Source of the DNA: Lophium mytilinum
Taxonomy: Eukaryota
Reading direction: 5' to 3'
Length of the DNA: 64,000 bases
Assembly: GCA_010093605.1 (NCBI GenBank)
Contig: MU004193.1
Location: 627,520 to 691,519, forward strand
Shown: in pieces, positions 1 to 44,208 of the stretch
How the letters are laid out: every line of letters begins with the position of its first letter
Numbering within the stretch: position 1 is the stretch's first letter
The notes under the pieces: model-generated
The model's input: the letters and a program-made list of their open reading frames with translations, nothing else
Databases searched by the model: none
Told to the model about the DNA's origin: nothing
Made by a program: the position numbers and the translations under genes

Positions 1-3000
1 ATAAAGGTATTCTTTAATTATATCTAGTAGTTATTCTTTATAGAAACGCTAGACTTTAGCTAGAACTAGAAAGCTATAGAGGGTCTTTTTATTAGTTTAA
101 CCTACTTAAATATTATTACTAAGAGAGGCAGCTAAAATAACTAACCTTCTTAACTATAACTATATAGATTTCTTATTTTTATAGTATTAGACTACTTTAG
201 TAATAATACACCCTAGATTATAACTATAATCTAGAACTAAGTATTTTCTAAGTAGCTTTAGTATTAAAATTAGCTATATTCTATAAATAGTCCTCTAGCG
301 CCTCTAGATAAAATAGGCGTATTAATACCTACTTTAGTAGAAGCTAGAGTAAATATACTAGGGGTTATATATATAAATAGAGTATATATAGATAGTAGCG
401 CGTATATAAATAGAGGCGCGTATATAAATAGGGCTAGTATTATAATATTATTAGAATATATACTAATACTATAGAGGGCAAGTATAGAGCGCTTTATAGA
501 ATATTACTAGTTAGTAGAAGTATAACTAATAAGTTAGTAGTAGAAGTAATAGTTCTTATTTATAAGCTAACGCTTTTAATTATCTATAAGGCGTTCTAGA
601 GCTAGGCGCTACTAATTAGTAGAAATATTAACGGGGAAGTTTATAACTTTATAAGTTAGTAGCGTAGATATCTAGTAATTCTAGGTAGATATATTTATCT
701 AGCCCTAGCTATAGTTATTCTAGTAGCCTTAGTTTTAGGTATTCTAAGAGACCTAGTTCTAAGTAGCTTAAAACTAACCTATTAGAGTCTAATTAGGGGG
801 GTTCTAATTAGAAGGGTTCTATAGGCGGTTACTGTAGTAGCTACTATAGTAGCTATTATTAGTCTAGAAGTTATTAGGCTATTAGCTATATTATCCGGGC
901 TAGTTATATAGTTAGTGTAGCTAGATATAGTTAACTATAGCTTAGTCTAGAAGCTAGTTATAGTAGGTATTAATAACTTTATATTCTTTTTTATAATATT
1001 TTTCTAGAACGCCTATAGGCTTAGTAATACCTAGGCGGATTTTTACCTTAAGCGCAGTAACATTCTAATAGTATTTTTAGTTTAGTAGTTATACTATAAG
1101 CGCTTAGTATTTTATATAGAATATATTAAGGTTATTATTACTCTATATTAGTTAGTTAAGTTACTAGAAGATAATAGCCTTAGAGTTATATAGTAGGTTC
1201 TTAATATTAAGGCACTTAATAGTATTATTAAGAGTATAAAAGGGCTAATAGCTAGTTATCTATATAATATAGTTGCTAAGAGGTATACTAGTAAGGTATA
1301 TACTAAGAAAGTAGAGGCAGAAGCCCTTATTATATTAGTAGAGGCAGCTACTATAAGTAAACTTACTAAGAACCTAGTAATACTAGGTAATATATTTAGC
1401 TTTATTACTATTATACTTAGAGGGGTATAGTATAGTTTTATTCTTATTTTAATTAGCGCGTGTTCCGCAATTAATATTATATAGAGGTAGTAGAGTGCTA
1501 TTAGGTTCTATAAAAGGTAGTATATATAATTAGAAAGTATAAATTAAATTATAGATATAGGAGTTCTTATTATTATTACTATTACTAGAATTAAAGGGGG
1601 GTTTACTACTACCTAAGTATATATAGGTCTATTAACTATAAAGAGGCTTATTAGGGCGGCGGGGTAGTAAGAGTTCTTATTACTAGTAGTTATAGCTATA
1701 GCCTTATAAATAATTATAGCTAGCTAGTAGAGTAGAAGGGTAATATATAGGCTTAGTACTATCTTTAGCTATAATATAGGCTATAAGCTTACGCTAATAG
1801 CCTATAGTAGCGGTAAGTTAGGTAGTAATCTTAGTAGGGGGGGGGGTACTAGTGCAAGTTATAGAGTCGCGGGTAGTAGTAGTCTAGAGGCTATTAATAT
1901 AGGCTTTAGTAGTAGTAAGAGCTTTTTTAATATTCTTAATATAGGCTTTAAGCTTAGTAATATACTTAGCTAAAGCTTTACTATAAGTCTTAAGCTTAGT
2001 AATATACTTTACTACTATTATATTAATAGTATCTATCTATATAGTAAATACTACTATATTAGCTATATATTTATATATAATTTTATTCTTAGTATTTCTA
2101 GTATAGATAGTATTATCTCTATTATAAATAGTATTATTATAGTTATTATAAAGGTTAGAAAGGTTAGACTAGTATTTAAATTTTATATTAGTAATAGTCT
2201 TTTCTAGCTACTTAATATTATCTTTTATAGCCTAGAGATAATTATTCTATTACTTAATTATTTTATAAGCTTACTTATTTAGCTTAGCCTATACTTCTAT
2301 AGAGGCCTTATTTTATTTAAGGCAGTTATATAGTTAATAAATCTTAGCTTTATATAAACGGGTTAATTTAAAGGCTATTACTTTATTCTTAATAATAAAG
2401 TCTATAAAGGCTTTAGTATTAGAGACCTTATATATAATAGGGGCTTTATTAGCATCTTACTTATTAATAGTAGAGTAGTTAATAAGTTTATCTACTTTAA
2501 GAATAGAATTCTTAAAGGCGCCGGGCATCTTAGAGTAGTAGATATAGCTACTAGAATTAGGTTAATTAAAGTGTTTCTAAAGCTTATTATCTTTAAGGAT
2601 AGCGTTGCCTTTAGTAAGGCCTTTAGTAAGGTTATCTTAGATATTATCTTAGGTATTATTATTATAGCTACGCGTGCGCTATAAGTTTCTAGTAATTATC
2701 TAGAACTCCTTAGCGGTATTCTAGAAGTCTTAAGTTAAGGCCTAGAAGTTTAAGAGTAGAATAGTGCGCTATAATAAAAGGTTATAAAGCTTTTATATAC
2801 TAGTTATACTAAGAGAGTTATAGCTATTAGCTATAGTATTAATAGCTGCGCGGGGTAATTATAGAGTATTATAGTTTACTAGTAGTAGATTATAGTTTAA
2901 AGACTTAGTAGAATAGTAGCTAGATAGAGCAACTTTATAGTATTATAGACTATAAGAGGTAAGGTATAGAGTATAGTATTAAGTAAGAAATAGAGTATAT

Positions 3001-6000
3001 TTATAAAGATAAAGTTATATAGAGGTAGAGGTTTTACGCGGCATAGGCTAAATATAGGCTAGAGGTATAAAACTATACTAGCGCATAGGCTTATATAATA
3101 TAGCTAAGAGCATGTAATATATATAGAGCTAGATCTATTATATCTTTTATAAGCTAGATAGGCGCTAATATACTAGTCTATAGAGAATATTATTTAGGGC
3201 TAGTAATAGTACTTATAGAGTTATATATAGGTTAAAGTTATTCTAGTATATCTAGCGGGCTTAGATTTATATATAGATTAGATAATATAAGTATATAGTT
3301 ATTTAATATCTAGAATATAAAGCTACTTATAGATATAGAGAAGATTATTAATAACTTTATAGTTACTAAGTTCTATTTATAGATAGTAATCTTAGTAGAA
3401 TTAGATAGAAAGCTATTACTAGTTATAGTATTTAGCATATTTTATAGCTTATATAATAGGGTTACCTTTAGAGTATTTTTAGACCCTTTAAAGAATCTAG
3501 TTATCTATAAAAACTATTTTCTTAAATAAATTATTTAGCTTATTATCTATAGGTAGTTTCTTAGTAGTAGAATTATATAGCTTATCTACTAGAGTTATTT
3601 TATTCTTTTTAGGGCGTTCTTATAGATAGGCTGGGCTAGAGTCCTTTATCTTATCTAGCTTAGCTATTAGTTAAGGTGTTTTTCGAGGGCGTCCTCTTAG
3701 GCGAGCTAGAGTAGAGTTATTTAGCTTATCTAGCTTAGCTATTAGTTAAGAAACTATAGATATAGTTATCTTCTTAAGGCGGCCTTTTATACGCACGCGT
3801 AGTCTAGAATTATTTAGCTTATCTAGAATAGTAGGTAGAGGGCGTATATATATAACTACTAACTAAACGCCTTTATTATCTAGGTAATTAAATTTACTAA
3901 AGTTATATATTATCTAGGCTAGTTTAATAAAAGTATACTTAAGCATATTAGTTAGAATATACGTAAGCTTAATAGTATAGTATATTTCTAGTTTATAGTT
4001 AGCTAGCTTTAGTATAACTTACTCTTAATATTTATACTAATTATTACCTAGGGCTAGTTTATTACCTAGTTATTAAGTTAGTAGGTTAGGTTTTTTATTC
4101 TACTTACCTAGTTTATAGGTAATTTTAAAGTTAAACTTAGCTAGAAATTCCGCCTAGTAAGCTTATTAATAGTTAAGGTATTTAGAAGTTATAAATATTT
4201 ATAGGTTTTTATAATCTAATATAATATTAACTAGACTATTATATTTCTATTCTTATCTAGTAAGTTTTAGCCTCTATTCTTTAAAGGCTAGAACTATAGC
4301 TAGAAGCTTCTTATTATAGATAGCGTAGTTAATCTATTATAGTATTATTTATTATAATATAAAGGCGACTAGGTAAAGTATTCTATTAGGCTAGACTTAT
4401 AATAGTATAGTAGCTATAGTATAATCTAAAGAATTATACTTAACCTAAGTATTATAGTTAGAGTTCTATAGTATAAGCTATAGTACTATATAGAAGCATT
4501 TCTTAATATTATAAAAAGCTTTAGCTTTATTACTATTATCTAGCTATAGAAATTTAAAGCCTTTTTATATAGTAGAGGTTAATATTATTAGTAGAGCTAT
4601 AAATACTAAGTAGTTAGCTATAAAGTATTAATAGAAATTATAGAAGCTAAGAAATACTTATATATTCTTAAGGTTTCTTAGCGTTAGCTAGTCTAGTACT
4701 ATTTAGACCTTAGCTAGATCTATTTAAACTCTATTAACGCTAATAAGTATACTAAGGTATTTAACTTTATTAATAGTAAATTTATATTTATAGATATTAA
4801 GAAATAGACCTATATTATAAAGTTTAGTAATAACTATAAAAATATATACTTTATATTCTTCTAGTATATTACTATATATTAAGATATTATCTATATATAC
4901 TATATAGAAATTATTAAGATATTTTTATAAGGTATTATTAATATATACCTAGAAGAAACTAGGTATATTATATAAACTAAATAGAAGGACTATAAATTTA
5001 AATAGCCCCTAATAAGTAAGAAAAGTAGTCTTATATTTATTGCCTTCTTTAATATAGAGGGCGTTAAACGCGCTAATTATATCTAGTTTTATATAGTACT
5101 TAGCTTTAGCTAGTAGTATAAGAGTATTCTTTACTAGCAGTAGTATATTACGGCTTTTAATACTAATCTTATTAAGGCTATAGTAATTAATATAGATATA
5201 GAGTCCTCTATCTAGTTTCTTAATAACTAGGGTTAGTGCGGCGTATAAAGAGAAACTTAGTTAAATAAAACTCTTTACGCGCATTTTATTAATAAAGGCT
5301 TTAATAATAGCTACTTAATCTTTTAAAAGGCTATATACTTTACAGGCTAGCGGCTTAGAGTCTAGAAGGACGTTAATTGCGTAGTCTATTAGTTAATAGG
5401 GTGGAAGCTTATTAGCTTTATGCGGGTTCTATGCGTCTACTATATAATAAAGCTAGTTAGGGAGTAATGCTTTAATCTCTATATTAGTAATAGAAGGCTA
5501 ATTTATTTTCTTAAAGAACTTCTAATAGTTAGATAGATTAATAGTAAAGATATTAGCTATAAAAGCTATAGTTTATATATTATAGAGAATGTTATTAAGC
5601 TCTATAAGGCTATATAAAGCTAGGTTATTCTCTAGTATAGAGATTTAGGGGTAAGTTATAGGCTAAGGCCTTTTACGCTTATAATTATCTATCTACTATA
5701 GCTTTTTCTAATTATTATCTTAAAGCTAAATAATATAGTCCTCTTTATTATCGCGCTAAAGCTTTTAGCATGCAGCTATTATATCTTTTATCTTATCTAG
5801 TTCTAGACTAAGTTTCTAATACTTACTAAAAACTTATTAAAGTGTAGTATTATATATACGCTTATCTACCCGGGTAATATTATAGTCTTTACTATTACTC
5901 TATACTTATCTATATCTATTAGTATAAAGGCAGTAATTATAATAGAAGTTCTTATTAAAGTTAAGAGTATGCTTACCCTATATAATATTAGACTTATATT

Positions 6001-9000
6001 TCTTAAACTATAGTATACCTAATATAATATTATATTCTTTAAGATTTATAATATAATACTATATATTCTCTATATAGGCTTCTAAGAATAGTATAAGTTA
6101 GGCCTTATAAGTTATAAGCTTTATAGGTATACTATTAGCTAAGTATAGTAGAATAGAAGTAGCTAGTAGTAGTATTATAAGCTTATTAGCTTTAGTATAT
6201 AACTATAAGATAAAGGTAAAGTAGAAATAGCCTATATTAGTAAGGTAGCGGCTATTAGTTATACTAGTAGATATATAAATTCTATATTTAAAATTTAACT
6301 ACTTACTATAAGTAATATCTTAGGTTAAGTTAGTAGAATAGGCTAATAGTTAGATTTTACTAGGCTTAGAAGGCGGCCGCTCTAACTTCTAGATATAAGC
6401 TATAATAGTACTTAGAAAGAATTCTATATAGCTCTATTTATAACTATAGTTAAAGCCTATATAAAATTCTTCTAGTTACTATTACTATTAGTATTACTAA
6501 GTATACTAGAAGAGGATACTTTATTAGTATAGGTAATAATAGTAAGGTTCTTTCTATTACTATTAATGGAAATTAAGTTATTATAGTCTTTATCCGCGTA
6601 GTAGATTATAGAAAGCTTAAGTTTAAGGCTATTATTAGCTTTAGATAGATATTTAGTTAGCTTACGCTTTAATAAAGGGGGTTTATTAGCGTATAGGCGC
6701 TTAGAGTTATTAGCTTAATAGCCCTTCTTAATATAGTAGAAGTAATAGCCTTTAGTATATAGTACTACTATAACTACTAGAGAAAGATAAATAGAGCAGT
6801 TACCTTAGTTCTTTTTATTATTGCGAGTAGATAACTATTATCTATAGCTCTATTTAGGGCGGCGGTCTTAGTTCTAGTAGTTATTTAGTTAGTAGTTACT
6901 TAAGTAGTTATTACTATAGCTATTATAGAATCTAGATAATTAAGAGGGTTAGATAGTTACTTTATACTAAGTATTATTCTAAAGAAAGGCTTTAGCGCGG
7001 AATACTATAGCGATAAGGGTAGGCTAATCTTAGTAGCTATTAGCGCTGCTAAATACTTAGCGGCTAAGATCTAAACGTAGTAGACGCTTAAGCTATCCTT
7101 TCTTAAAGGTAAAAGAAATCTAGTTCTTATTATTAATATTAGTTATCTCTTTAAAATGTAGTATATATATATTCTATAACTTATAGCCCTTTATCTTTAC
7201 TTTATTACTATAGAGAATATTATCTATATAGATAGGCTTATTAAAGATAGTAAAATATAGATCTATATAGGTAAATATCTTATTAAAAGTTTTAAAGTTC
7301 TTATTTAGTAAAAGCTTTTTAAACTAGGTATAGCTATAGATAGTAGCTTTTACGTAATTAATATAGTATAACTTAATATATTCTATCTTACTCTACTTAT
7401 CTAGGTAGGCTAGGCCCTTATATTAGAAGATAGCGTAGGCGTAGCTCTTCTAAAATAGGTATTAGTATTTATTACTCTTACTAGTAAATTTCTAGAGATT
7501 ATAAAATTTTAGCTTATAGTCTCTATAGAGCTATAGGCGTATAAGCTAAGTTATAGTATTATTATCTATAATAGTAAAGTTATTATAATTAGTATTATTA
7601 TTATTATCTTCTAAGTTATAGTTAAGGTTGCCTGCGGCGGCGGCGGCAGCGTAATGTAATTAGGCGGGCGCTAATACTACTATCTAGTTTACTTTTAGAT
7701 TAGTATACTACTACTTATAGATAAAGCTAAGCTCTTTAAAGTAATTATACTAGATTTATAGATAGTCTAAGTTCTATTATACTATAGTAATGTCTTATTA
7801 GAGGGCTTTATTTACTAAGCGTACTTTATCTAGAAGGAGAGTCTTAGCTTTATAAGCTTTATATTTAGTTATAAACTATTAAGTATACTTAGTATATACC
7901 TTCTTATTTTCTAATTAAAGACGCGTAATATCTTTAGTTAGTTAAGTAACTTTAGCTTATAGATATAAGATCTTATTAGGGTCTTAAGCTTAGTTATAAA
8001 GGGTAGTTAGCTCTATATCTTAGGCCCGGTAATTCTCTTAAAGAGATTCTAGGTTCTACTAGAATATAGTAACTCTATAGTATATATTTTTATAGTACTT
8101 AGAAACTATATTATAAAATACTTTAGTAGAGTTAAGATTAATATTAATAGTATTAGTAATTCTATTATAGTTAATATAGAATATAATTCCTTTAGCTATT
8201 ATAGTAAAGTATAACTTATAGTAGCTAGAGTTATAGCGTGCTAGGCCTAGTATAGGTAATTCTAGGTTAGGCTATAATAGTATAGCTATAGTAGAGGGAC
8301 TCTATACTAATAGAGGTAGGTTATCTATATACTTTTTAGTGCGCTAGGCTTTCTAAGTAAATAAAAGAACTAGGCTTATAGAAATATTATTATTCTATAT
8401 ATTAAGAAGGTTACCTTAAGTAAAGTAGACTACTTTATAGAGGTCTATAGTAGACTAGAATTAAGTATTATTATTTTTCTTATTAAGCTTATCTAGCTTC
8501 TAGTCTAGCTACTTATTATCTTTCTTATTAGAGGTAATATAGAACTCTTTATCCTCTAGATTAAGAGAGCGCCTACTATATTAAAGAATAGTAGTTAGTA
8601 GTTAACTATAGGCTATAGCTATACCTAGTCTAATAGTACCGGCCTTTAGTATATAGAGTTTACTATAAGTAGCTAGCTACTCTAGAGTAGAACTAATACT
8701 ATATTAAGATAGTTTACCTATCTTTTTATATAAGAATTTTATATATTAGGTCTCTTATTATATATACTAAGAGTTTAAGGCTAGTATAGATTATATAGTT
8801 TAGCTCTTAATATTAGAGTATAGATTAGTATTACTACTCTTATTAATATATATATTACTAGAGGAAGCTTCTAAATATACTATAGTATATTTACCGCAAC
8901 TTAGTATTATAGGCGGGTAGTTCTACTTATAGGGTCTTAAATAAGAAGAAACTAGTATTAAAGAGTTATACTAGTTAACTATTACTAGTTAAGTAATAGT

Positions 9001-11820
9001 AGATAGTATTCTAGTAGATAGATAATAGTCTAGATAGTTAGATAGAGGAAAAGATTAGTATAGAAAGAAAGGTTATAGAGCCTTTATAAAAGCTAGTAAG
9101 TAGGTATTTTATAGCTAGGCGCCTAGCGCTATTCTTAGTAGCTAAATTAATTAGTAAATAACTATACTTAGTTTAGTTAGTTTATGCGCGCGTAAATAGA
9201 GGCGCTATAGTAAGTAGATTTATAGGGTCTATGCGTTAGTTTATATAGATAATAGGGTATAGTAATATTCTTACTATAAGGTTATAGGGCCTTTTAAGAT
9301 TATAGAGTCTTCTTCTATTTTAGTTTCTTATTAATAAAAGTTATAGAAATTAAATTCTAGTAGCTATAGGGGCGCCGGTATATATATAGGTAAGTAGGTA
9401 GATAAAAAAAGTACTTCTAATATCTTCTAGAAGCTAGAAGGGTAGCTACTTTATATTATAGTATAATATAGAATTATAATAGAAAACTAATAGTATTAAG
9501 TATATAATAAAGTAGCTATAAGAAGAGAAAGAGTAGAGCGCGGAGCGCTAGCTAAGAGGTAGGTAAGGCTAGCGCTAAGTAAGGTTATATAACGGTAGCA
9601 TGTAATAGAGGCTACGTAATACTATTACTTATAATAGAAACGTATTATAATAAGGGTTACGTTATAGCTATAATAATTAATATTAGTTTCTTAAAAGTAA
9701 TTATTATCTAATTCTTTATTAGCCCTAGAGATAGTATTAAGGCGGCCCTAATAGTCTCTTATTCTCTTATACTAGAAGATTTAATACTTATTAGTAGTAG
9801 TAACCTATACTATCTATTTATTAAAATTAGAAGAGGCCTACGCTTAGGCATTAATATAAAACTTAAGGCTAGGTTTTAAACCTGCGCGGGCATATTAATA
9901 TACTTTAAGATTAAATAGAGCTATATTAAGAGGGTATATATAAGTAGCCCTAATAAGCTTATTAAAGAACTATTAAGTACTAGTTATCTATACTATTTTA
10001 TTAAAGTAGTATTAGTGTTACTCTAGCATATCTACGCTCTTATAGCGGCGGCTAAAGGTAGTAAAAAACTAATCTAATATAGTAAACTTAGTATTATCTT
10101 AATAGTACTATTAAATATCTTAGTTCTATTAAATAGCTATAGTTCTAGCTATATAGCTACTAGCTAGCTAAATCTTTTAAGTTTCTAGTATCTACTAGTA
10201 AACCTATTAATAGGCATCTACTTATATAGTAATAAAGTTATATATCTAAACTATCTAGATAGGGTATATATTATTATTAACTTTATCTAACTATATAGTA
10301 GAAGTTCTTATAAGAACTTTAGATAGCGCTATTAGATAAAATTCTTTTATAGCTAATATTCTTTTAAAGGCTTATTAAAGCTCTTATATAGTTTATTCTA
10401 ATAGAGGCTTATTATAGTCTAGTATTAAATAATCTAAGAAAGTATTAGATAATAGACCCTAAAAGTTAGTAGTACTCTAAAAAGTAGGCTACTACTAGGG
10501 GTTATTTAATATATTCTTAATATAGGTATAGTACTTAAAAACTATAGCTTATAGCTATTCTAGTATAGTAGCCTACTACTATTATATAGAAGAAGCTAAT
10601 ATAAAACTAAAAAGTTCTAGTTTTTAGTAATCTATTATATACTCTATTATAGGGGCTTAAAAGTATTAATAGCTATCTAAAAAAGGTATAAATAATAGCC
10701 CTTAATAGATAAGCCCTAGATTATAGGCTAGAGTACTACTATAAATAATTAAAGAATCTTAAACTAGTAGCTTAATAGGTTTTAGAGTAGCGGCCTACTT
10801 AGCCTATAAGGCTAATATTAGATTAGATAGATTATAAAATATAGTACTAAACTAAAAGAGCCTTTAAAAGAGTTCTTAAAGGTTAAAAGATAATCTATTA
10901 GAATAATAATATCTATTACTAGATATAAAAGAAAGCTAAGAGTTATAGAATATCTAAGAATAAGAAAGAGTAAAAAAGAGTTAATAACTATAATATAATT
11001 AAAGTAAAGAGTAAGAAAAGAGTACTAAGATAGTAATATTAAGTTTCTTTCTTAAATGCTTTTTAATATCCTATTAGAGAGGGAGGATTCTTAAAAGAAC
11101 TTCTCTACCTTCTTTTTATAATTAACTTATAAGGATTTCTAATTACTATATAATTATTAGGCTCTATTAAGCTATAATATTATTCTTCTTACTATTCTAC
11201 TATTAATCTTGCTTTAGTAGCTAATAGAATATATAGTTAGTTGCGTAGAAGTATTAAAAGAAATAGAAAAATTCTATAGTAATATTCTAGCTAAGGGCTC
11301 TTTAGACCTATACTATTTAATTTTTATAAGAATATTTATAATAGATAGTTATACTATAATACTGGCCTAATACTAATTAGGGGCTATTATTAATAGTTAT
11401 TATTAATTACTAATTAGGTTAATTTTTAGAAACTATTAATATAGCTTAGTATTATTATAATAATCTAAAAATTCTACTAATTATAGAAGCTAATATTTTC
11501 TATTATTACTAAGAGTTAATTATAAGAATATAGCCTTAGCTAGCTCTATACTATTAAGTTTAAGAATTTAATAGCCCTTTAAGAAGGCCTTAAAGGCGGC
11601 TAGAACTATAACTAAGCTACTAGATATAATATTTCTAATTATATAATATAAGAATTTAAAGAATAATAGATATTAATTCTATATAGAAATCTAGCTAGAC
11701 TATATATATATTAGAGAGGCCTATATAGGCCTTAATTATACTAGATTTATATAGAAAAGCATTCTTATAGTAGATCTATATATTATGTATATAATATCTA
11801 AATATTAACTGTATATTAAG
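1..11820. repeat. AT-rich, RIP-degenerated repeat/heterochromatin block
   Basis: TpA is overwhelming and CpA/TpG are nearly absent, while CG/GC survive. No ORF of 60 aa or more appears in the track. Composition shifts to normal around 11.8-11.9 kb. Confidence 0.95.
3113..9600 (-). mobile_element. RIP-inactivated Ty3/gypsy LTR retrotransposon relic (gag-PR-RT-RH-partial IN)
   Basis: Minus-strand translation shows transition-damaged motifs in gypsy order: Gag knuckle YFYY..KGY (~6750-6718, from CFxC..GH), protease YLTNIG (~6247-6230, from DTG), RT KLDIISAFNAL (~5085-5055) and VYIDNILIYS (4900-4871, from YxDD), RNase H NYAIYNKKLLAIV (4330-4292), integrase HHCC-like YKSKPARY/YY*P/AYLAYK (3280-3145). 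Outer boundaries are approximate. Confidence 0.9.
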
Positions 11821-12228
11821 AATTCTACAAGTTTACGCAGCTGTTAGGGCTTCTAACTTTCGCGTCCCGTCCCGGATATTAAGCTGTCGCTGGTGGCTTT
11901 CCATAGTCAATTAAAGATAGCATTAACTATTAAACTCGCGATTGCCTGGTCGACTGACGAGATGGCTTGTTGTTGAAAGAGGTGATGGCAAGATGATGGA
12001 ATGGTGTTCGTTTTGACAAGTGGAGATGCCTACGTAGTTTAATTCCTTGCAAACGCAGCAGCACTACCACGTCGCTGTATCATTCTATCACAGCTCTATA
12101 AAGTACCTATCTCCATGAAAGATTTCTTCTACAAGTTCAGTCATCTCCTGCACGGCCACTAAAGTAAAAAGATTCCCATTAAAAGGCCTAGTCACGTGAT
12201 ATTTCACCACTCTCGAACTTTTCTCAAC

Positions 12229-20320: not shown

Positions 20321-22258
20321 ATGAGCCGCTGGGCTCCGTCCTCCAACCGTGCAACCGGCGACCTCAACCGCGTTGAGGCACCGGTTACCCTTCGAGGCTA
20401 CCTACTTTGCGTAAGTCGCTGTGGTCCTACGCATCGCCATGCCTCTGAGTAGACCCTTGCCTTTAGGTCCTCGAGGTGTTGAATATGTCGATTTCTAGTG
20501 AAGTAAAGGCTAACGTTCTCGTCTAGGCTTTCGCAGCTTTTGGTGGTATCCTGTTTGGCTATGATTCGGGTTATATTGGTGGCGTTCTCGCCATGAACTA
20601 CTTCAAGCAGCAATTTGGGCGTAAGCGTCGCCTATCTCTACTTCAGTTCAAACTCTCTTATCGTTGTTCGAAGTACTTCGAGATATTCCAAAGCTCATCA
20701 AATCACAGATCACCAGCTCCACGACGCTGATGCCTACAATGGCTACAACTACGACAGCTGGCAGAAATCTCTCATCACCTCAATCCTCAGCGCCGGTACA
20801 TTCTTCGGAGCTTTATTTGCTGGGTCTCTTGCCGACTGGATTGGTCGTCGATCTACGATTATTGCGGGGTGCGGTGTTTTCTCCGTCGGTGTCATACTCC
20901 AGGTTGCGTCCACCACGGTCAGCTTGCTCGTTCCTGGCCGGCTCATTGCTGGCATCGGCGTCGGCTTCGTGTCGGCAATCATCATCTTGTAAGACCACAT
21001 GCTCGTCTTCTGTCGCAGTACTAAACGACCACAGGTACATGAGCGAAATCTCGCCCAAAGCCGTCCGAGGTGCGATAGTCTCAGGGTACCAATTCTCAAT
21101 CACCATTGGTCTTCTCCTAGCTTCCTGTGTCGACAAGGGCACCGAGAATCGCATGGACACTGGCTCCTATCGCATCCCCATGGCAATTCAATGGGTTTGG
21201 GCGATCATCCTTGCTGTCGGTCTCTTTCTTCTTCCAGAATCTCCACGCTACTATGTCAAGAATGATAAGATGGACGAAGCTGCGAAGGCCCTCAGCCGTC
21301 TTCGTGGTCAGCCAGTAGACTCTGCCTACATCCAGGACGAGCTTGCCGAGCTCGAAGCCAACTATCGCTACGAATCGGAGAACATGCATAGCAGCTGGAT
21401 CGACTGCTTCCGTGGAGGGTGGAAGCCTTCCGGAAACCTTCGTCGCGTTATGCTTGGCATGGCCATGCAAATGATGCAGCAATGGGTACGCCCTTCTCTT
21501 TCTTGACTCTCTTTTGCCTACGCTAACGAACAGGAAAGACCGGTGTGAACTTCGTCTTCTACTACGGTACTACGTTCTTCCAGCAGGTCGGAATCCAGAA
21601 CGCATTCACCATCTCCATCATCACCACAGTCGTCAACGTATGCTCGACTCCGCTCTCTTTCTGGACGATCGAGAAGCTCGGACGTCGCACCCTCCTCATC
21701 TACGGCGCCGTCGGCATGCTAGTCTGCGAGTTCATCATCGCAATCGTCGGCACCGTCGCTCCCGAAGCGCACGCCGCCAACCTCGTCCTAATAATCTTCA
21801 CCTGCTTCTACATCTTCTTCTTCGCCTCGACCTGGGGCCCCGCAGCCTGGGTCGTCATCGGCGAGATCTTCCCCCTGCCCATCCGAGCCAAGGGCGTCGC
21901 GCTCTCCACCGCGTCGAACTGGCTTTGGAATTTTGTCATCGGTTACATCACCCCTTACATGGTCGATGCCAACCAGGGTGATCTCAAATCTAAGGTGTTC
22001 TTTGTCTGGGGCACGACTTGCACGCTGTGCGTCTTCTTCGCTTACTTTTTCGTTCCGGAGACGAAAGGCCTCAGTCTTGAGCAGGTCGACCGCATGCTCG
22101 AGGAGACGAACCCCCGTAATAGCGCTAAGTGGGTGCCGCATGATACGTATGTGGGCCGTGGCGCTCGCGATGGTGTTAAGATGGCCTCGTTGGGCTCTGA
22201 TGGCGGTGCGGACCACCTGGAGAAGGTTGATAAGCACTCGGAGGCTACCCAGGTCTAG
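20321..22258 (+). CDS. MFS sugar porter (high-affinity hexose/glucose transporter type)
   Basis: Exons 20321-20410, 20527-20620, 20709-20988, 21035-21485, 21539-22258. Motifs FGGILFGYDSG, DWIGRR, PESPR, QQWTGVNF and PETKG. Confidence 0.95.
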
Positions 22259-22649
22259 TCGGTATTGAGGAAGCCTTGGAATACACTGTCCGCGGGAAGG
22301 GCTCCGGTAAAAAGGTGGATCTTGCGGTATTGGTACGGTCAGGCGTTTCTGTAACGGCGGGGCGTTAACGTCGGTTGAGGAAAAGGGTTCATCAGCGTTC
22401 GGTCCAAATGAGGCGTTTGAGTGGCTGTTTGTTAGCGCTTACTATAGGTTATAGTCTTCGGTGCTGATTTATGTCTAGCCTCTGGGGGATCCCAGGAGAC
22501 ATGGCTTGTTCTAAACCCGGCACGAAAACGTTAGTAGTTCTTCTTTTTGGTCTTCGTGCTGTGATACGTGACATACGTCTTCCTTCAAATCTGATGGATT
22601 CGATGATGCCGAGGATAATCTTTAAAGTAAGGCATATTTCTTACTGTAA

Positions 22650-23715
22650 GCAAGGCGCCCTAGATCAAGTCGCCGTCAAAAGGGTAAGAAAGACCTACCG
22701 GGGCACTTCTGTAGAAACAATGCGGGCTCTAGTTTACAAAGAGTCACATTTCTAACCGTGTGAAATATGTTTTGTTAGACGCAGCGTAGTTACTTTTGTA
22801 CCTAAATTGGGGGGGCCTAAATCAGGTCACCGGTTAAAGGTTTCAAAAAGGCTACCGGAGAACCGCGAGAGGGAGATTGTGAGGCCTAGTTACAAAGAGT
22901 CACATTTCTAACCGCGTGAATAGTTCTTATCAGACGCGGTGTTGTTACTTCTTGTAACCGAAGCTGGGTGCACTAAATCGGGTCGCCGGTAAAAGGATAA
23001 GAAAAGGCTACAGAAGCACCTCAGTTGAGGTACGAAGAGGCCCAGTTACAAATAGTCACATCTCTAACTGCGTGAAATATTTCCATTACACTCGGCGTTA
23101 TTAGTTTTTGTCGAAGTAAGGGGCTCTAAATTAGGCCGCCAGTCAGAGGATGAGAAAGAGCTACTGAAGTGCTTCCACGGATAGATTACAATGCCTAGTT
23201 ACAAATAGTCACATTTCTAACCGCATGAAATATCTTTTGTTAGACGCGGAGGGCCACGCGGCCGAGTCGCTTTTTGTAACTGAACCTTGACGTCCTGGAT
23301 CAGATCGTCGCCAAAACGATGGAAAAGGCCTTCTAGAGTACCTCCGTTGAGGTACTTGGAGGCCCAGTCACAAATAGTCACATTTCTAACCGCGTGAATT
23401 TCTAACCGCGTGAAATTATTTTTATAATTAAAGCAAGACGTCCTAGATCAGGCTGTTGCCAAAAGGATAGAGAAAGCGTTCTGGGGCGCCTCTGTTGAGG
23501 TACTAAGAGGCCTAGTTATAAATAGTCACATTTCTAACCGTATGAGCCATTTTTTGTTGCACGCGGAGGGCACGCAGTCCAGTCATTTTCTGTGACTGAA
23601 GTCAGACGCCCTAGATTTGGTGCGCACGAAAAGGATGAGGAAAGCCTTCGGGAGTACCTCCATAGTGATACCGCGAAGCCTAGTTACAAAGAGGCACATT
23701 TCTAACCGCGTGAAA
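22650..23715. repeat. Diverged tandem array, 7 units of ~148-169 bp with conserved ~35-bp core
   Basis: Core C(T/C)AGTTACAAA(G/T)AGTCACATTTCTAACCGCGTGAA starts at 22729, 22886, 23042, 23195, 23364, 23512 and 23680. Confidence 0.95.
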
Positions 23716-23820
23716 CAGGTAGTCGTCGGTCTGCCATTGCATTGCGCTTCTCTACTTTGACGTAAGAGATAAGGATAGCTCGGACGGATTCCGTATGATT
23801 GACATGTTCATTCAGACTAC

Positions 23821-24624
23821 CTAGTGCCATGTTTCCTGCAATAAGCCATGATCCCCAGCGGTCTTCAGTACCCAACTATTGATGCACGCCTTTCCCGAAT
23901 ACTCACTTACATCTCGAAACACTTTACCCCCACACCTTTCCAGCAGCATCGCCGCTCTCTCATCCATACTAGCACACAATCTCAACCTCGCAACATCACC
24001 TGGCACAAACCTATCCGCATCCTTACTAAAGCCAGGCAGCGTTGTATCATACTCCGCCATCACAAGCCCACCACTACTCGGCCATGCGACGCACACCCAG
24101 AACCTCTCGCTCGCCGTCGGCTCCGGCTCCGTCCCTTCTTCCAGCGCGTCACGACAGCCTGCCTCATACAACTTCGCATCTAAGAGCAACGAAAAGCGGG
24201 CTCGGGAGTCCCACCACTTCGCCCCGAGGAGCAAGAGTCGCTGGCAAAACGCGTCCTCCTGCGTTGAATCCTCATATCGTTTTTGAGGTGGACGCAGGCG
24301 ATCGAGACCGAGGAAGTCAAAGTCGACGGTTCCTGCGTCTTCGAGGACAATTACTCCGCCTCGACTTGGCCAGCCGTAGATGAAGAGATCTGAGTCCGAG
24401 ATAAAAAAGCGAGATGTGACATCCTCCAGACACTTAGGGGGCGGTGATCCAAGACCTTGTCGCGGATGGATCGGCTTCTCGATGGGCGGCTCGATGGGGT
24501 GGGAGGGAGCGAATAGCTGTGAGCGGGAAGTTGGCTGCGATTTTGGCGTAGAATTGTTGCTGCCACTGAGGGATTGATACGAATAGGAATTTGTGGACCT
24601 TGGGAAATCGACGGTCGATGTAGC
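23821..24624 (-). CDS. Conserved fungal hypothetical protein (5' end unresolved)
   Basis: Stop-free frame 24624-23821 encodes FIYGWPSRGGVIVL..DFDFLGLDRL..EDAFCQRLLLLGAKWWDS..WPSSGG..ASMDER. There is no ATG in its 5' part, so an upstream exon is needed. Confidence 0.7.
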   Translation of the reverse strand, partial: ATSTVDFPRSTNSYSYQSLSGSNNSTPKSQPTSRSQLFAPSHPIEPPIEKPIHPRQGLGSPPPKCLEDVTSRFFISDSDLFIYGWPSRGGVIVLEDAGTVDFDFLGLDRLRPPQKRYEDSTQEDAFCQRLLLLGAKWWDSRARFSLLLDAKLYEAGCRDALEEGTEPEPTASERFWVCVAWPSSGGLVMAEYDTTLPGFSKDADRFVPGDVARLRLCASMDERAAMLLERCGGKVFRDVSEYSGKACINSWVLKTAGDHGLLQETWH

Positions 24625-26623: not shown

Positions 26624-27995
26624 CTATGGAAGCACTTTCTTCAACGTCTCCACGAGCAGTGTGACTTCTTCTTCGGTGTTGTAGTGCACCATACTAACCC
26701 TAATCACTCCTTCCGATCCAAGCTTGAGGACCTCATCGCAAAGCCTCTTACTGTAGAAATGTCCCCATCGGAACCCAAAGTTGGATATCTTCTCCGCATC
26801 CTCTACGACCTTGCGGGAACTAATACCAGCCACCGTAAAGCTGATCGTGGGGACTCGTAGGGAAGAGTCAGAGCTAGTCTCACCGTGAATCGTGACATCT
26901 ATACGAGACGTGAGATACGTCAAAAGGGTCGATTGCAATTTCTCTTCGTGTTTGGCGATAGCTTCGAAGACCGGCTTCGGAGATTCGCCCCCGAGGTACG
27001 ATACAATCAGCGGAATAGACTGAGTAAGCTCGTAGTTTGCTCCTGCAAGTCCGATCTTGTCTTCTAACGTAGTCGTGGGGTTGAAGTAGTGACCCATGGG
27101 ATGGAGTCTATCCTGGACCGCGCTAGACACGTAGAGCGCAGCAATGTGAGGTCCATATACCTATCAAGCTGAGTCAATATCATGCAGTGGGTACTAAAAG
27201 CAGCTTTTATACTTTATACCACGAGAATCCGTAAAAGTCCACTCCCAGCTCTTTCACGTCAATCTGGCGGTGCGGCGCGTAGGCAACACCATCGACGCCA
27301 AAGAGTGCTCCCGGGACTGAGTGCACCATTTTCGCGATTGAGCGAATGTCGTGGATAGTTCCAAGGATGTTTGAGGAATGAGTACATGCGACGAACTTGG
27401 TCTTGGGTGAGAGAAGGGGCTTCAACGACTCGGGGGTCAGTTTGGGATTCACGGAGTTCGCTGGTGACCACCACTTGATAGTCATGTTGGAGCGTTTAGC
27501 CATGTCTAACCAGGGATCAATGTCGGATTCATGGTCGACTTTTGAGAGGATGATCTCGTCTCCGGCTTCGAAGTTCAGGGAGAATGAGAGGTTGCGGAAC
27601 AGCTGCGTTGTTGATGCGCCGAGGACTATGAGACGTGATGAGTATAGTAGTAGAAGATCTATTGCTTGAATGAAGAGAATTATCCAGCTTACCAACTTCC
27701 CCAGGATCGGCGTTCATGTACTTCGTTGCTGCATCGCATCCTGCGCCATACTTCGAGGTCGATTGCTGGCTTGCGTTGTAGGAAGCACCGAGCTGGACAT
27801 TGGTATTGGAAAGATATTTCGAGACTCTGAGTATTTGAGCATGCAGAATGGAAGGAACTAGTCTACATGTAAGACTAACGACTCAATCACTTCTCCTAGC
27901 ACCTGACTTCCACCGGCGTTATCAAAGTAGACCTGGTCTTGCTTCAAAGCGGGGAAGAAGTCACTGGCTTTCGTGACGTCAAATGTACCAGCCAT
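26624..27995 (-). CDS. PLP-dependent class-V aminotransferase / cysteine desulfurase-like protein
   Basis: Exons 27995-27880, 27826-27693, 27625-27213, 27160-26624. Motifs YFDNAGGSQ, DGVAYAPH, SWYKVYGPH (PLP lysine) and RVSMVHYN. Confidence 0.93.
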
Positions 27996-28213: not shown

Positions 28214-28291
28214 GATGCGGCCTCAAAACACGCGATGCGGCCTCACGATGCGGCCTCAAACGACACGATGCGGTCTTGCGATGCGGCCTCA
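28214..28291. repeat. Five direct copies of GATGCGG(C/T)CT
   Basis: Copies at 28214, 28234, 28247, 28267 and 28280, lying 220-300 bp upstream of the PLP enzyme ATG. Confidence 0.85.
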
Positions 28292-34437: not shown

Positions 34438-34640
34438 ATTAGAACTACGGAGAATCGAAACAACGTCGCGAGATGGAAAGATATGATTCTGAAGCATCAA
34501 GATTTGATTGTTTGCAAATAATGAGAAAACGGATTTGACAGAGATGTATGTTGAGCGAGGATGCATGATCAATAATCAGAACACGTCAGCCGAGGACGTC
34601 GGTTCGGATCGCGGAGAAACTCGATCGCCGACCTGGCTAT

Positions 34641-35190
34641 CTGGTTCAAAGTTCACCTGCGAAACTTTGAGCCAGATCACGGCCATGGCCGAAAGAGGAA
34701 GGTTTCAGGAAACCGTGGAGCACAGATGCAAATTTGGACCAGAATTTGAAATTTTGCACCAGAATTTGAACTTGAAACCGGCCTGCAAACTTTGAATCAG
34801 ATCACGTGCAGAGCTGAAATAGGCCATCCTTTCTTTGAGGATAGACTTTACTTACTTAACAAAGTCCGTTAATAGTGCAGATTGTCTTCGTGCTTAATAA
34901 CGTTAATGCTGTAGCCTACCTAGGAGTCTTTTATTCTCTATATGGCACGTGACCTGGTTCAAAGTTTGCAGATTCTGGTTCAAACTTTCGCAATTCCGGT
35001 CCAAACTTTACATCTGTGCTCCACGGTTTCCTGGAACCTTCCTCATTTGGCAATGCACGTGATCTGGTTCAAACTTTCGCAGTTCTGGTTCAAACTTTCG
35101 CAATTCTGGTTCAAACTTTGCATCTGTGCTCCACGGTTTCCTAGAACCTTCCTTATCTGGCAATTCACGTGATTTGGTTCAAAGTTTGTA
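34641..35190. repeat. Composite inverted + tandem repeat element (110-bp units with CACGTG and ~21-bp subrepeats)
   Basis: Direct units start at 34946, 35056 and 35166 (partial); an inverted copy spans ~34810-34657. Confidence 0.9.
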
Positions 35191-35817
35191 TGCTGGGGTA
35201 TATAGAAATAAGAAGATAGGTGGTCCAGTACCGAGTGGTAATATATAAGTTTGGGCACTCCCTGGGAAACTTAGAGTACTCCCGGGTATGCTATGAAGAA
35301 TCCAAACACGATGTATAGATCAAAGGAATGGATATCAGCCTACCTCTTGACCAACCGAACGCAGATTGGCTAGGGCACTCCTGACAGTGGTGTCGAGAGA
35401 GCAAGATTGGAGGCGAATCAGTGCTTTATCTGTGTGGCTAGATTGATGACCTGGCACCTCCCTATACCTTCGAAACAGCAGATGATTGAAGTGCAATGCA
35501 CGAGTTGCAGACTTTACGATTCAGTCATGATACACTGTTGAGAAGAAAGGTATGACATGAATTGTAGACAAGAGCTGCTTGCTCAAGACAGTTACTATAT
35601 ACTCCATTTGCATACAACCAAACTACCATGATCATAGTCGTTTGAATTCCGAGCTACAAGCAAGTGAGTACTGTAAAGACCTTCATATTAGGCCACGTAC
35701 TGTAAGCCACACAATACCTCATACCGACAAAGCTCGGGGGAACCATAGCCATGGCTATGCACCCGCAGTTCCACTCCGCGACCCCGTTGATCCTCACGCC
35801 GTGTCCTCGCGGTCCCT

Positions 35818-37602: not shown

Positions 37603-37649
37603 CTTGGAGGTTGTTTGTTGGAGTGATGATCGATGGTGTCAAAATCTTG

Positions 37650-37727
37650 GTCGAAAGTTGGATGTAGAGAAGTCTGGTCGAAAATTTCGTCGAGAGTTAG
37701 ATGTAGGAAACTTTGGTCGAAAATTTC
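37650..37727. repeat. 39-bp tandem duplication
   Basis: GTCGAAAGTTGGATGTAGAGAAGTCTGGTCGAAAATTTC followed by GTCGAGAGTTAGATGTAGGAAACTTTGGTCGAAAATTTC. Confidence 0.8.
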
Positions 37728-39144
37728 GTGGCCGCTGACTTTGAGTACGTTCGTCATGGCAGATCTTTGGTGAATGCAATCGCCTTGGATCATGTGGCGG
37801 GCTTCGAACGCCGTCCAAACCCGCTGGTCCCCGAGCTCCCTATCACAGCTTATCAGCTCCAGCTTTTCCACGCACGCCTCACTGGAGAGGCGTAGAAGCT
37901 CGTTCCTATCTGCTAGCTTTGTTGTACAGATGTTGCTATTCGATAGGGACCTAGATATAAAACCTCAGCTCGTGCTAGTTAAGGACAGCTCCGCGCATGA
38001 GATGAGAATCAAAACAGTTTCTCTAGTATCCTGCGGGCGTTGATAAAAGGATATGCCGCCCCCGAGGGAGCAGAGGCTTAAGGAAATCTCAAAGCTCCAT
38101 GCCTTGATAGAAGGATATGTGGATCGGGAGCTGATTGATACGGCAGAAGAGCAGTCATCCCGAGGCCACCGAAGAGTTGACGTCACTTCTAGACCTATTT
38201 GAGGACGCTCATTGGGCTTTGAGATACCCCAGGCCCAGCTAAAATGGGAATTAGAAGAGGGTAAATCTAACGATCCTGGAATAAACACAATCGAGATAGG
38301 AATTGATATACTTTAGGTGAGCCTGTGCCGCCTGCAAGCTTTTCTTAGATGTTATGAGATGAAAGAATACAAGCCAAATTGGGGTCTCTCCCACAAAATG
38401 CTCGCAATTTAATGCAATATTAGTAGGATTGCCGTTTCAGTTTAAGAATACAACGTAAGCTATAACTCTATCACCAGATGGTTACGAGGTTCGGGAGCCT
38501 GTTAGCATCTGGAATCGCGATGAGGTGGAGTGCGTCGTAGATGCTCAGAGGAGATGTGTTTACTTTGATGGTACAAACCCGTTCCGCTACTTTGACCTTC
38601 ATAGCGTTAAATTGCAGGCTGCAGCATCCGGAATAGGCCAGAACACGACGGTTATATATATGAACACCCTGTTTGCTACCCAGGTGATTGCTGTAGGTGT
38701 AGGCGATTGCTGTAGGGTGATTGTCATAATCCAACAGCGTGGGCATCAACTTTCGACATGGGCGACTGATGCTGACTGGAAGGCTGGACGGCAAGGAGAC
38801 TGCAAAGGGTGGCGAAGTCCTCTCATAGAACTTGACCAAGGATAATACTTGGAACAATGTTGATTGCCTTCGGTAGTAGCGTTGAAAAGGGCATACTTAG
38901 GTCCGTGACAGAACGGCAATGAACTCGTAGCAACCCAGCCGAGACCCCCATCAGGAGATCTACCCGAATCTCAATAGCTCGTTTCAATACTCGCCGGGTA
39001 GCATCAGCGGGGGAGTGATGGACAAAAACGGACGAGAAAGATTCGACGTGATGCCCAGGATAACGACAATGCGCTGGAAGAAGTCTGTAAACGGTAGCTA
39101 ACGTGTATGAAAAGATAAGCAATCGCCCCTTGAGATGACATATA

Positions 39145-43179: not shown

Positions 43180-44208
43180 ATGAACACAATCCGCCAGATC
43201 CAAGACCTCAACAAGCGCGAGCTCGAATCCGCAGTCAGCACAGAAGGCTCCTGGCACACCGACTACCGCGACACCGCCTACATCTACATCGGCGGGCTCC
43301 CGTTCGACTTCACAGAAGGCGATGTCATCACCGTCTTCTCACAATTCGGGGAGCCCGTCTACATCAACATGGTGCGCGACAAAGAAACGGGCAAGTCAAA
43401 AGGGTTTGCGTTCCTGAAATACGAAGACCAGCGGAGCACGGATCTTGCGGTGGATAATCTGGGCGGGGCGACGGTTTTGGGGAGGGTGCTGAAGGTAGAT
43501 CACACGCGGTATAAGCGGAAGGAGGGGGAGGAGGAGGTTGATAACACCGGGTGGAAGCCTACGGGTAAGGGCAATGCTGAAGTCACTGAGGATGAGGAAG
43601 AGGGTGGGCGCAGGAAGAAGAGGCGGACCGAGAGCGCGAGCGAGAGTGAGGAGGAGCGGCCGATGCTGAAGGAGGAGATCGAGTTAGCGAAGCTGGTTAG
43701 GGAGCACGATGATGATGATCCTATGAAGGCGTACATGGTCAAGCAGAAGCGGGAGGAAGTTGAGGAGGCTTTGAAGAAATACATGAAGGGAAAGAGCAAG
43801 GAGAACAAGCATAAGCATCACTCAAAGCGGCATCGTCGAGACCGGTCGAGGGACAGGGAGCGGTCAGATCGACGCATCAAGGCGGGATCAGAGGAGGTTG
43901 ATTCGCGACGCAAAGAGCGTTCTCGACGTGATCACTCTAGGGACAGGGACCGGCACGTCAAAGCTGAGGCCGAAGAGCGCAGTTCACGACACAAAGAGGT
44001 CTCTCGACGAGATGCCTCTAGAGACCGCCGCATAAAAGGGGATTCTGAAGAGCCGGACTCACGGCGTAAAGAACACTCTCGACGAGATCACTCCAGGGAC
44101 CGTCGACGGGAGCGATCAGGAAGTAGGGACCGCCGGCGAGAAAGGTCAGGAAGTAGGGACCGCCGGCGAGAAAGGTCAGGAAGTAGGGACCGCCGGCACA
44201 GAGACTAA
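43180..44208 (+). CDS. IST3: U2 snRNP / RES complex RRM protein Ist3 (Snu17/RBMX2)
   Basis: Motifs SWHTDYRDTAYIYIGGL, GKSKGFAFLKYEDQRST and KVDH; RS/RD-rich tail. Confidence 0.93.
   Translation: MNTIRQIQDLNKRELESAVSTEGSWHTDYRDTAYIYIGGLPFDFTEGDVITVFSQFGEPVYINMVRDKETGKSKGFAFLKYEDQRSTDLAVDNLGGATVLGRVLKVDHTRYKRKEGEEEVDNTGWKPTGKGNAEVTEDEEEGGRRKKRRTESASESEEERPMLKEEIELAKLVREHDDDDPMKAYMVKQKREEVEEALKKYMKGKSKENKHKHHSKRHRRDRSRDRERSDRRIKAGSEEVDSRRKERSRRDHSRDRDRHVKAEAEERSSRHKEVSRRDASRDRRIKGDSEEPDSRRKEHSRRDHSRDRRRERSGSRDRRRERSGSRDRRRERSGSRDRRHRD
44095..44197 (+). repeat. 30-bp coding tandem repeat (RDRRRERSGS x ~3.4)
   Basis: AGGGACCGCCGGCGAGAAAGGTCAGGAAGT at 44125 and 44155, a variant at 44095 and a partial copy at 44185. 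Confidence 0.9.

What the first reader, a model, noticed from the sequence alone, without database searches (positions are those of the whole stretch)
22650..23715. Seven-unit intergenic array with a conserved ~35-bp core and repeated hairpins: candidate structured-RNA array
Seen: seven near-identical cores at spacings of 157, 156, 153, 169, 148 and 168 bp, separated by ~115-135 bp segments that are much more diverged. The array sits between two convergent genes. Units carry inverted complements of their own core. In unit 2, ACCGCGT (22911) pairs with ACGCGGT (22934), and GTTACAAAGAGTCAC (22889) pairs imperfectly with GTTACTTCTTGTAAC (22944), giving a ~70-nt hairpin. A second stem-loop, GTACCTC-CGTT-GAGGTAC (23338-23355), recurs with variants in two other units. 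Inference: uneven conservation plus retained pairing suggests selection, e.g. a polycistronic small-RNA precursor with a fixed processing repeat and variable payload, or a protein-binding array phased near nucleosome repeat length. It resembles a repeat-spacer array but is not CRISPR, because the spacers are homologous to each other.
Basis: partly seen in the sequence, partly recalled or inferred. Interest (0 to 1): 0.85.

Follow-up and report, generated by a model that had tools for sequence, protein, structure and literature searches.

The report
Scattered fungal repeat with conserved box
Seven old, drifted copies of a roughly 155-base repeat sit between two fungal genes and keep one 34-base block almost unchanged; the repeat also occurs elsewhere in the genome, and the block looks more like a protein-binding site than part of a folded RNA, though what binds it is unknown.

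Summary
The array is real: seven head-to-tail units of 148-169 bp between two convergent genes of a Dothideomycete fungus. The whole unit is homologous, so it is a tandem repeat, not repeat-plus-spacer. A 34-bp box is 90% identical between units against 58-64% upstream (0 of 100,000 permutations; 1-16 of 1,500 neutral simulations). The structured-RNA reading fails: no Rfam match at gathering score, no covariation (2 double changes against 2.5 shuffled), the box arm has 2 changes and its partner arm 14, and unit 7 keeps the box without the hairpin. The constraint is on sequence, not pairing. Other contigs of the same DNA carry the box, some in tandem order, so this is one array of a dispersed family (roughly tens of copies). 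A spliced-RNA run holds other copies, one at high depth; transcription of this array is undecided. Best reading: a short-array satellite-type family whose box is a protein-bound or exchange site, partner unknown. Earlier scan notes report similar arrays on other DNA of this genome; I could not show that they are the same family.

The parts
22650..23716 (.). Tandem array, six full units and a seventh that is recognisable only up to the end of its box; unit starts 22654, 22811, 22967, 23120, 23289, 23437, 23605
22729..22763 (.). Conserved box, unit 1 (one extra T)
22886..22919 (.). Conserved box, unit 2 (window letters CTAGTTACAAAGAGTCACATTTCTAACCGCGTGA)
23042..23075 (.). Conserved box, unit 3 (hairpin weak, 13 of 22 pairs)
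23195..23228 (.). Conserved box, unit 4 (long unit form; the region 23207-23249 is matched by a high-depth contig of RNA run X3 from another locus)
23364..23397 (.). Conserved box, unit 5; followed by an exact 16-bp duplication of its 3' half (23382-23414)
23512..23545 (.). Conserved box, unit 6 (long unit form)
23680..23713 (.). Conserved box, unit 7: 94% identical to the consensus although the partner arm is no longer alignable
22944..22959 (.). Example of the degenerate inverted copy of the box's left half (partner arm of the long hairpin); decays mainly by transitions
23328..23364 (.). Upstream hairpin, best kept in unit 5; inner stem recognisable in units 3, 5, 6; not conserved by covariation
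22618..22651 (.). Decayed left-edge remnant: fits an in-phase unit tail, and also fits a decayed box; ambiguous
23759..23779 (.). Decayed in-phase start of an eighth unit, 154 bp after the start of unit 7
   Evidence: profile score in the top 0.06% of positions 12001-64000, both strands
21545..22258 (+). Left neighbour: last coding stretch of a sugar transporter gene (PF00083), ends about 390 bp before the array
23821..24624 (-). Right neighbour: open frame of a conserved fungal hypothetical protein without a Pfam family, stop codon about 105 bp from the array

Best explanation
This is one array of an old, dispersed, short-array tandem-repeat family (satellite-type, unit about 155 bp). Shown: the units descend from one ancestral unit that carried two or three inverted repeats; most of the unit has drifted to about 60% identity; one 34-bp box has not; the family occurs at other loci, partly in tandem order. 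Inferred: arrays grew locally by unequal exchange or slippage (adjacent units 1-3 share a short form, adjacent units 5 and 6 are each other's closest match, unit 5 has a 16-bp duplication), and the box is held by a sequence-reading partner, most likely a DNA-binding protein. That protein either gives the array a chromatin or regulatory role, or makes the box the site where units are exchanged and spread. The hairpins are inherited and decaying and are not the selected feature.
For: Whole-unit homology, no gaps over columns 5-79. Box 0.90 against 0.58-0.64 identity; 0 of 100,000 column permutations; 1, 1, 2 and 16 of 1,500 in four neutral simulations with rate variation and boosted CpA/TpG/CpG transitions. 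RIP-type targets inside the box are intact: two CA steps and one TG step in 7 of 7 units. Outer stem: 2 changes on the box arm, 14 on the partner arm, p=0.004. Box kept at 0.91-0.97 whether the hairpin has 19, 13 or 0 of 22 pairs. Dispersal: in the DNA runs X1 and X2, other contigs match the box and run on into different sequence; 10 of the 11 listed joints lie in the array region, and some read box then unit start, or unit start then box, which is tandem order elsewhere. The same pattern, divergent monomers sharing one conserved box, is described in Meloidogyne satellites (PMC3694981, passages; PMC8097292, abstract).
Against: No binding protein was identified, and the box matches no motif I could confirm. 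The absence of indels over 75 drifted columns (6 or more of about 7 indels fall in 55 of 164 columns, p=0.007 on a hand count) is not explained by a single box. An RNA run carries other copies, one at high depth with its contig end near the unit start, which would suit an RNA-level role. The partner arm is somewhat better kept (0.70) than the rest and changes almost only by transitions (56:9 pairwise), which could be residual stem selection. The dispersed copies were seen only as 20-64-base matches and 30-base flanks; X1 and X2 are one sample and may be the source of this window. The unit tree has no well-supported branch, so local duplication order is not proven.
Confidence: 0.55

Rival explanations
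1. The box works at RNA level as a sequence element: the family derives from, or is carried in, one end of an abundant transcript (UTR element, RNA-binding-protein site, or an undescribed non-coding RNA), and this array is a cluster of such units.
For: X3 is spliced RNA: its contig 24 leaves the window at 27160, exactly at an intron acceptor. It holds contig sequence matching 23207-23249 at summed depth about 2,300, against 2.5-33 for the listed pieces of the neighbouring genes. The arithmetic gives one 43-base interval, with 95 letters before it and at least 255 behind, so the contig end falls about where a unit starts (my inference). The box contains the branch-point word CTAAC in 7 of 7 units.
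Against: The tool warns that contig depth is a poor measure of expression and shows no strand, start or end. With tens of copies in short fungal intergenic gaps, some will lie in UTRs by chance. That contig comes from another locus. No joint in the array region is listed for X3. No Rfam family.
Confidence: 0.15
2. Concatemers of a tiny non-autonomous rolling-circle (Helitron-like) element: the box is the head-to-tail junction, that is the 3' CTAG plus the 5' 30 bases, preceded by a terminator hairpin.
For: The box begins exactly at CTAG (5 of 7) or CCAG (2 of 7), about 8 bases after a hairpin that is recognisable in 3 of 7 units. Short arrays of about six monomers of nucleosome length are spread by Helitrons in oyster (PMC8268682, passages).
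Against: The junction reads TC in only 1 of 7 units (the TC/CTRR rule is recalled). Array edges fade and give no A|T target. A concatemer should decay evenly once inserted. No transposase or RepHel domain among the 102 open-frame queries scanned (overlapping sets).
Confidence: 0.1
3. One reading: polycistronic precursor of structured or microRNA-like small RNAs, with the box as the fixed arm.
For: One arm conserved, the partner arm less so and the loop least is the pattern of hairpin-derived small RNAs (recalled). The long hairpin pairs at 78-81% against 33-44% for slid controls. With a nearly invariant arm, the shuffle control has little power.
Against: No covariation; no G-U over A-C bias; 2 of 9 folded segments have z below -2; the box is kept in units 3, 5 and 7, where the hairpin is weak or gone; the box is 34 bases, longer than a Dicer product.
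Confidence: 0.08
4. The box is a site-specific recombination or integration site, and units are cassettes added one after another at existing boxes.
For: 34 bp with an internal direct repeat of 10-bp period and an inverted partner; star-like, deeply diverged units; the left remnant 22618-22651 can be read as an eighth, decayed box sharing a rare variant with unit 7.
Against: The left remnant fits an in-phase unit tail equally well; adjacent units share features, as expected from local duplication; no recombinase among the frames scanned; no evidence of excised circles.
Confidence: 0.05
5. Introner-like or intron-plus-exon repeat: the box is the 3' end of a multiplying intron.
For: Branch word in 7 of 7 units, a YAG 13-24 bases further on in 4 of 7; the X3 copy is preceded by a donor-like hexamer (read by eye); earlier scan notes report introner-like elements in this genome.
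Against: Intergenic; donors do not fall at a common unit position; the acceptor is lost in 3 of 7 while 34 bases around the branch are kept, more than splicing needs; ILEs show compensatory changes (PMC3609843, passages) and this array does not.
Confidence: 0.04
6. Entirely neutral decayed minisatellite; the box is an accident of mutation context or of gene conversion.
For: Mild RIP signature (TpA/ApT 1.48); edges fade; the most permissive simulation reached the observed block in 16 of 1,500 runs.
Against: The same block is the one retained at other loci (detection at 80% identity favours the best-kept block, but it need not be the same block everywhere). Mutable steps inside the box are intact. 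The simulations were under-diverged (0.16-0.19 against 0.205), which makes the test conservative.
Confidence: 0.08

Closest known systems
Meloidogyne satellite DNAs with conserved Box 1/Box 2 and the 19-bp centromeric box (PMC3694981, passages read; PMC8097292, abstract read)
   Same: Divergent monomers (32-64% identity in that paper) sharing one short, nearly invariant box; box proposed as a protein-binding site and as a junction for rearrangement.
   Different: Fungus, gene-rich intergenic site, 34-bp box not shown to resemble the CENP-B box, only about seven units, no centromere link shown.
Euchromatic short-array satellites of Drosophila (1.688, Rsp-like; PMC7403614, abstract read) and Tribolium (Cast; PMC11610590, passages read)
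   Same: Short tandem arrays scattered among genes; local growth by unequal exchange; spread by circular DNA or mobile elements proposed.
   Different: Units here are far more diverged within one array; no large parent block is known; circular DNA not tested.
Helitron/Helentron-carried short arrays of the Pacific oyster (PMC8268682, passages read)
   Same: About six monomers per array, nucleosome-range length, scattered.
   Different: There the conserved boxes flank the array as element ends; here the box is inside every unit and no element ends are seen.
Introner-like elements of Dothideomycetes (PMC3609843, passages read)
   Same: Same fungal class, multi-copy, hairpin-forming, branch-point word present.
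   Different: Not in a gene, no conserved donor, acceptor lost in 3 of 7 units, no compensatory changes, tandem arrangement.

Membership tests
Dispersed short-array satellite with conserved box | Head-to-tail homologous non-coding units | tested here: met
   no codon periodicity
Dispersed short-array satellite with conserved box | Copies or short arrays at other loci of the genome | tested here: met
   (partial matches, loose ends, joints in tandem order in X1 and X2); number only roughly estimated
Dispersed short-array satellite with conserved box | One short block far better kept than the rest of the monomer | tested here: met
Dispersed short-array satellite with conserved box | Box binds a protein or marks exchange junctions | not testable with these tools
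   needs binding assays or full sequences of many arrays
Structured ncRNA array | Match to a described RNA family | tested here: not met
   Rfam gathering 0 hits in the window; best E=7.2 on 22300-23900; ARAGORN 0
Structured ncRNA array | Compensatory base changes keeping the stems | tested here: not met
   2 double changes in 37 pairs against 2.5 shuffled; third small hairpin 1 of 7 pairs against 1.3; only 7 sequences, so power is limited
Structured ncRNA array | Transcribed and processed into unit-phased RNAs | tested here: inconclusive
   only contigs of one RNA run were available; they cannot show ends, strand or absence
CRISPR-like repeat-spacer array | Spacers unrelated to each other | tested here: not met
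   58-64% pairwise identity, gap-free alignment
MITE (features recalled) | Terminal inverted repeats at the limits of homology | tested here: not met
   the 16-17-bp inverted repeat is internal; homology continues on both sides (joints)
MITE (features recalled) | Target-site duplication | tested here: inconclusive
   none around the inverted repeat within units (by eye); array edges are decayed
Helitron, non-autonomous (termini recalled) | 5' TC | tested here: not met
   TC in 1 of 7 units, TT in 6; RIP could convert TC to TT here
Helitron, non-autonomous (termini recalled) | 3' CTRR with a hairpin about 10 bases upstream | tested here: inconclusive
   CTAG 5 of 7; hairpin recognisable in 3 of 7
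Helitron, non-autonomous (termini recalled) | Insertion between A and T; autonomous RepHel partner | not testable with these tools
   edges decayed; whole genome not held; none in window frames scanned
Introner-like element | Lies in a gene as a spliced intron with donor, branch and acceptor | tested here: not met
   intergenic; branch 7 of 7, acceptor 4 of 7, no common donor

The most novel reading that the evidence does not exclude
The 34-bp box is the recognition site of an undescribed fungal system: either a sequence-specific protein or recombinase that builds and spreads phased arrays in gene gaps and uses them as chromatin landmarks, or the conserved core of an abundant, undescribed RNA whose gene has seeded dozens of genomic copies. 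Several unrelated box-bearing arrays noted in this genome would then be parallel instances.
Probability: 0.15. Interest if true: 0.75.

Novelty: new member of a known kind. Interest (0 to 1): 0.33.

Why it matters
Conserved boxes inside otherwise fast-drifting tandem repeats are an open question even in animals. This is a compact fungal case in which the box is sharply delimited, has resisted RIP-type change, and is independent of the hairpin it sits in, so one 34-bp probe could pull down the partner. If nothing binds and no RNA is made, it is an ordinary lineage-specific repeat. My searches found no description of the sequence, but subscription journals and repeat libraries such as Repbase were not searchable.

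Tried and rejected
Whole-genome search and download: no genome held. Exact box patterns: 0 hits in metagenomes with 23 letters, 1 hit with 18; 0 and 2 hits in viral contigs with 21 and 16 letters; 0 in prokaryote genomes. The three hits match only the searched word, with no convincing unit homology around it, and are treated as chance. Plasmid blastn: no match. No RNA holder of the array itself was listed, and X3 shows no cover on two array bins; by the tools' own rule neither is evidence of silence. Scan look-ups by sequence found nothing and none near this place. A second conserved sub-motif in columns 5-79 was not significant (p 0.43-0.70). Protein-coding repeat: no codon periodicity. tRNA/SINE head, C/D or H/ACA snoRNA, hammerhead or hairpin ribozyme, telomere box, integron attC and Starship target: compared by eye with recalled consensus motifs, only partial matches, rejected; these are not tool tests beyond Rfam and ARAGORN. 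The bacterial promoter/terminator scan was uninformative. Paper searches gave nothing on such an array in fungi (listings only).

Full report
Setting. The window is fungal: positions 1-12000 are an AT-rich block with a strong RIP signature (TpA/ApT 1.6-2.0), the rest is gene-dense with ascomycete genes. The best named relative of the right-hand neighbour is a Zopfia rhizophila protein at 62% identity, and many of the named hits are Dothideomycetes (251 hits among 2,063 candidates). An earlier scan note names the species as Lophium mytilinum; I did not check this. The array lies between the 3' ends of a sugar transporter gene (+, stop at 22258) and a conserved hypothetical gene (-, stop at 23821).

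Observation. Seven boxes are present with the stated spacings, and the stated hairpin arms are at the stated coordinates. Alignment shows that the entire unit is homologous, with no gap in any unit over columns 5-79. A profile of the unit finds the seven units and nothing else significant in the window. In-phase decayed remnants lie on both sides, so the array fades out and has no sharp ends.

Uneven conservation is real. Mean pairwise identity is 0.90 in the box (columns 80-114), 0.64 and 0.58 in the two upstream blocks, 0.51 in the hairpin loop region and 0.70 in the partner arm. No permutation in 100,000 gave so conserved a 34-column block. Four neutral simulations with gamma rates and boosted RIP-type transitions reached it in 1, 1, 2 and 16 of 1,500 runs, although they were somewhat less diverged than the data. 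Mutable steps in the box are intact in 7 of 7 units at three positions. The minimum number of substitutions is 9 in the box and 85 in columns 5-79.

The constraint is on sequence, not on pairing. RNAalifold finds only -2.08 kcal/mol, with an unfavourable covariation term. A third small hairpin at the unit start behaves the same way. The stems pair better than slid controls (33-44%), which shows that the inverted repeats are ancestral, not that they are selected. Changes that keep a G-U pair are no more frequent than those that give A-C (20 against 28). In the outer stem the box arm has 2 changes and the partner arm 14 (p=0.004). The box is equally well kept in units with 18-19, 13 or 0 of 22 pairs. 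Of 9 folded segments, 2 have z below -2. Rfam and ARAGORN give nothing. Caveats: seven sequences give limited power, the shuffle control is weak when one arm is nearly invariant, and the partner arm changes mostly by transitions (56:9 pairwise), which fits RIP-type decay but also residual stem selection.

The family is dispersed. Runs X1 and X2 are one sample and may be the source of this window, so they describe the same genome and are not independent support. In them 48 and 39 records were laid, 25 in each only partly; these totals include the locus itself and sugar-transporter paralogues. Depth piles up on the boxes, and loose ends with different flanks begin at the box start. Ten of the 11 listed joints fall in the array region. 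Some join a box to a unit start (22914 or 23223 to 23429) or a unit start to a box (23452 to 23524), which is tandem order at another locus. A rough conversion of excess depth gives about 40 box-sized pieces per run; the tool warns that depth is no copy number, so I say only 'tens'. Read by eye, the 30-base flanks upstream and downstream of several outside copies are still homologous to the unit, so the dispersed entity is the whole unit and not a MITE bounded by the inverted repeat. The tables were truncated (73 loose ends and 128 pieces not shown).

RNA. X3 is labelled RNA by guess; I take it as spliced RNA because its contig 24 leaves the window at 27160, directly at an intron acceptor. It has almost none of the array's words, which decides nothing. 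It does hold family copies from other loci. One interval, 23207-23249, has summed depth about 2,300 with 95 letters before and at least 255 behind; the width works out at 43.0 bases, which suggests a single contig whose end lies about where a unit starts. Strand, true ends and expression level cannot be read from contigs. This is the main result that does not follow from my preferred reading: it may be a copy in the tail or leader of a strong gene, or the source RNA of the family.

How it most likely works. Shown: one ancestral unit, tandem amplification, long drift, a hairpin-independent conserved box, copies elsewhere. Inferred: local growth by unequal exchange or slippage (units 1-3 share a short form, units 5 and 6 are 77% alike upstream against 49-68% for the other pairs, unit 5 has a 16-bp duplication; the tree itself is unresolved), and retention of the box by a sequence-reading partner. 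A DNA-binding protein is the simplest partner because the box has a 10-bp-period direct repeat and is kept regardless of folding; this step is inference. The lack of indels in columns 5-79 (p=0.007 on a hand count of indels) hints at a spacing constraint that I cannot explain.

Comparison with known systems. It works like the conserved-box satellites of Meloidogyne, where monomers of 32-64% identity share a 17-bp box found at monomer junctions (PMC3694981, passages) and centromeric repeats share a 19-bp box (PMC8097292, abstract), and like euchromatic short arrays of Drosophila and Tribolium (PMC7403614, abstract; PMC11610590, passages). It fails or cannot be shown to meet the tests for CRISPR-like arrays, MITEs, Helitrons (PMC8268682, passages; terminal motifs recalled) and introner-like elements (PMC3609843, passages). 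PMC12910237 (passages) only notes two past waves of transposon expansion in Lophium mytilinum. No supplements were read; an introner or repeat catalogue in a supplement could list this family. A full-text search for a 14-base piece of the box found 0 papers.

Earlier scan notes describe several 107-163-bp intergenic arrays on other pieces of this genome, one with a 38-base core carried in an mRNA tail. I took the label 'short-array satellite' and the intron test from them. Sequence look-ups did not link them to this array, so they are leads and not support.

Verdict. Observation confirmed; structured-RNA array not supported; a real and unexplained sequence constraint on a 34-bp box in a lineage-specific dispersed tandem repeat. 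New member of a known kind, interest 0.33.

Noticed in passing
window 34640-35200: A second, unrelated repeat: a 110-bp unit in 2.2 copies (34945-35188) facing an inverted copy (34657-34823), with several GGTTCAAA motifs that resemble the recalled Pol III B-box and with CACGTG words. Possibly the same kind as scan note e1-7554317; not checked.
   Followed up: partly
window 1-12000: AT-rich (22-30% G+C), heavily RIP-mutated block with no open frame of 100 codons, probably dead transposons; sharp border to gene-rich DNA near 12000.
   Followed up: no
window 23821-24624 (-): The neighbouring hypothetical protein has 251 homologues across ascomycetes, no Pfam family, and is covered by X3 RNA contigs: a conserved, unnamed fungal family.
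   Followed up: partly
run X3, matching window 23207-23249: A high-depth RNA contig from another locus carries a family copy close to one of its ends, preceded by a donor-like hexamer about 66 bases before a possible acceptor; identity of the transcript unknown.
   Followed up: partly
window 22618-22651: The left remnant shares a rare box variant with unit 7 and could be a decayed eighth box bracketing the array, or an in-phase unit tail.
   Followed up: partly
window 28214-28291, 37641-37729, 44095-44197: Small tandem repeats of period 33, 39 and 30; the last lies in the RRM-protein frame.
   Followed up: no
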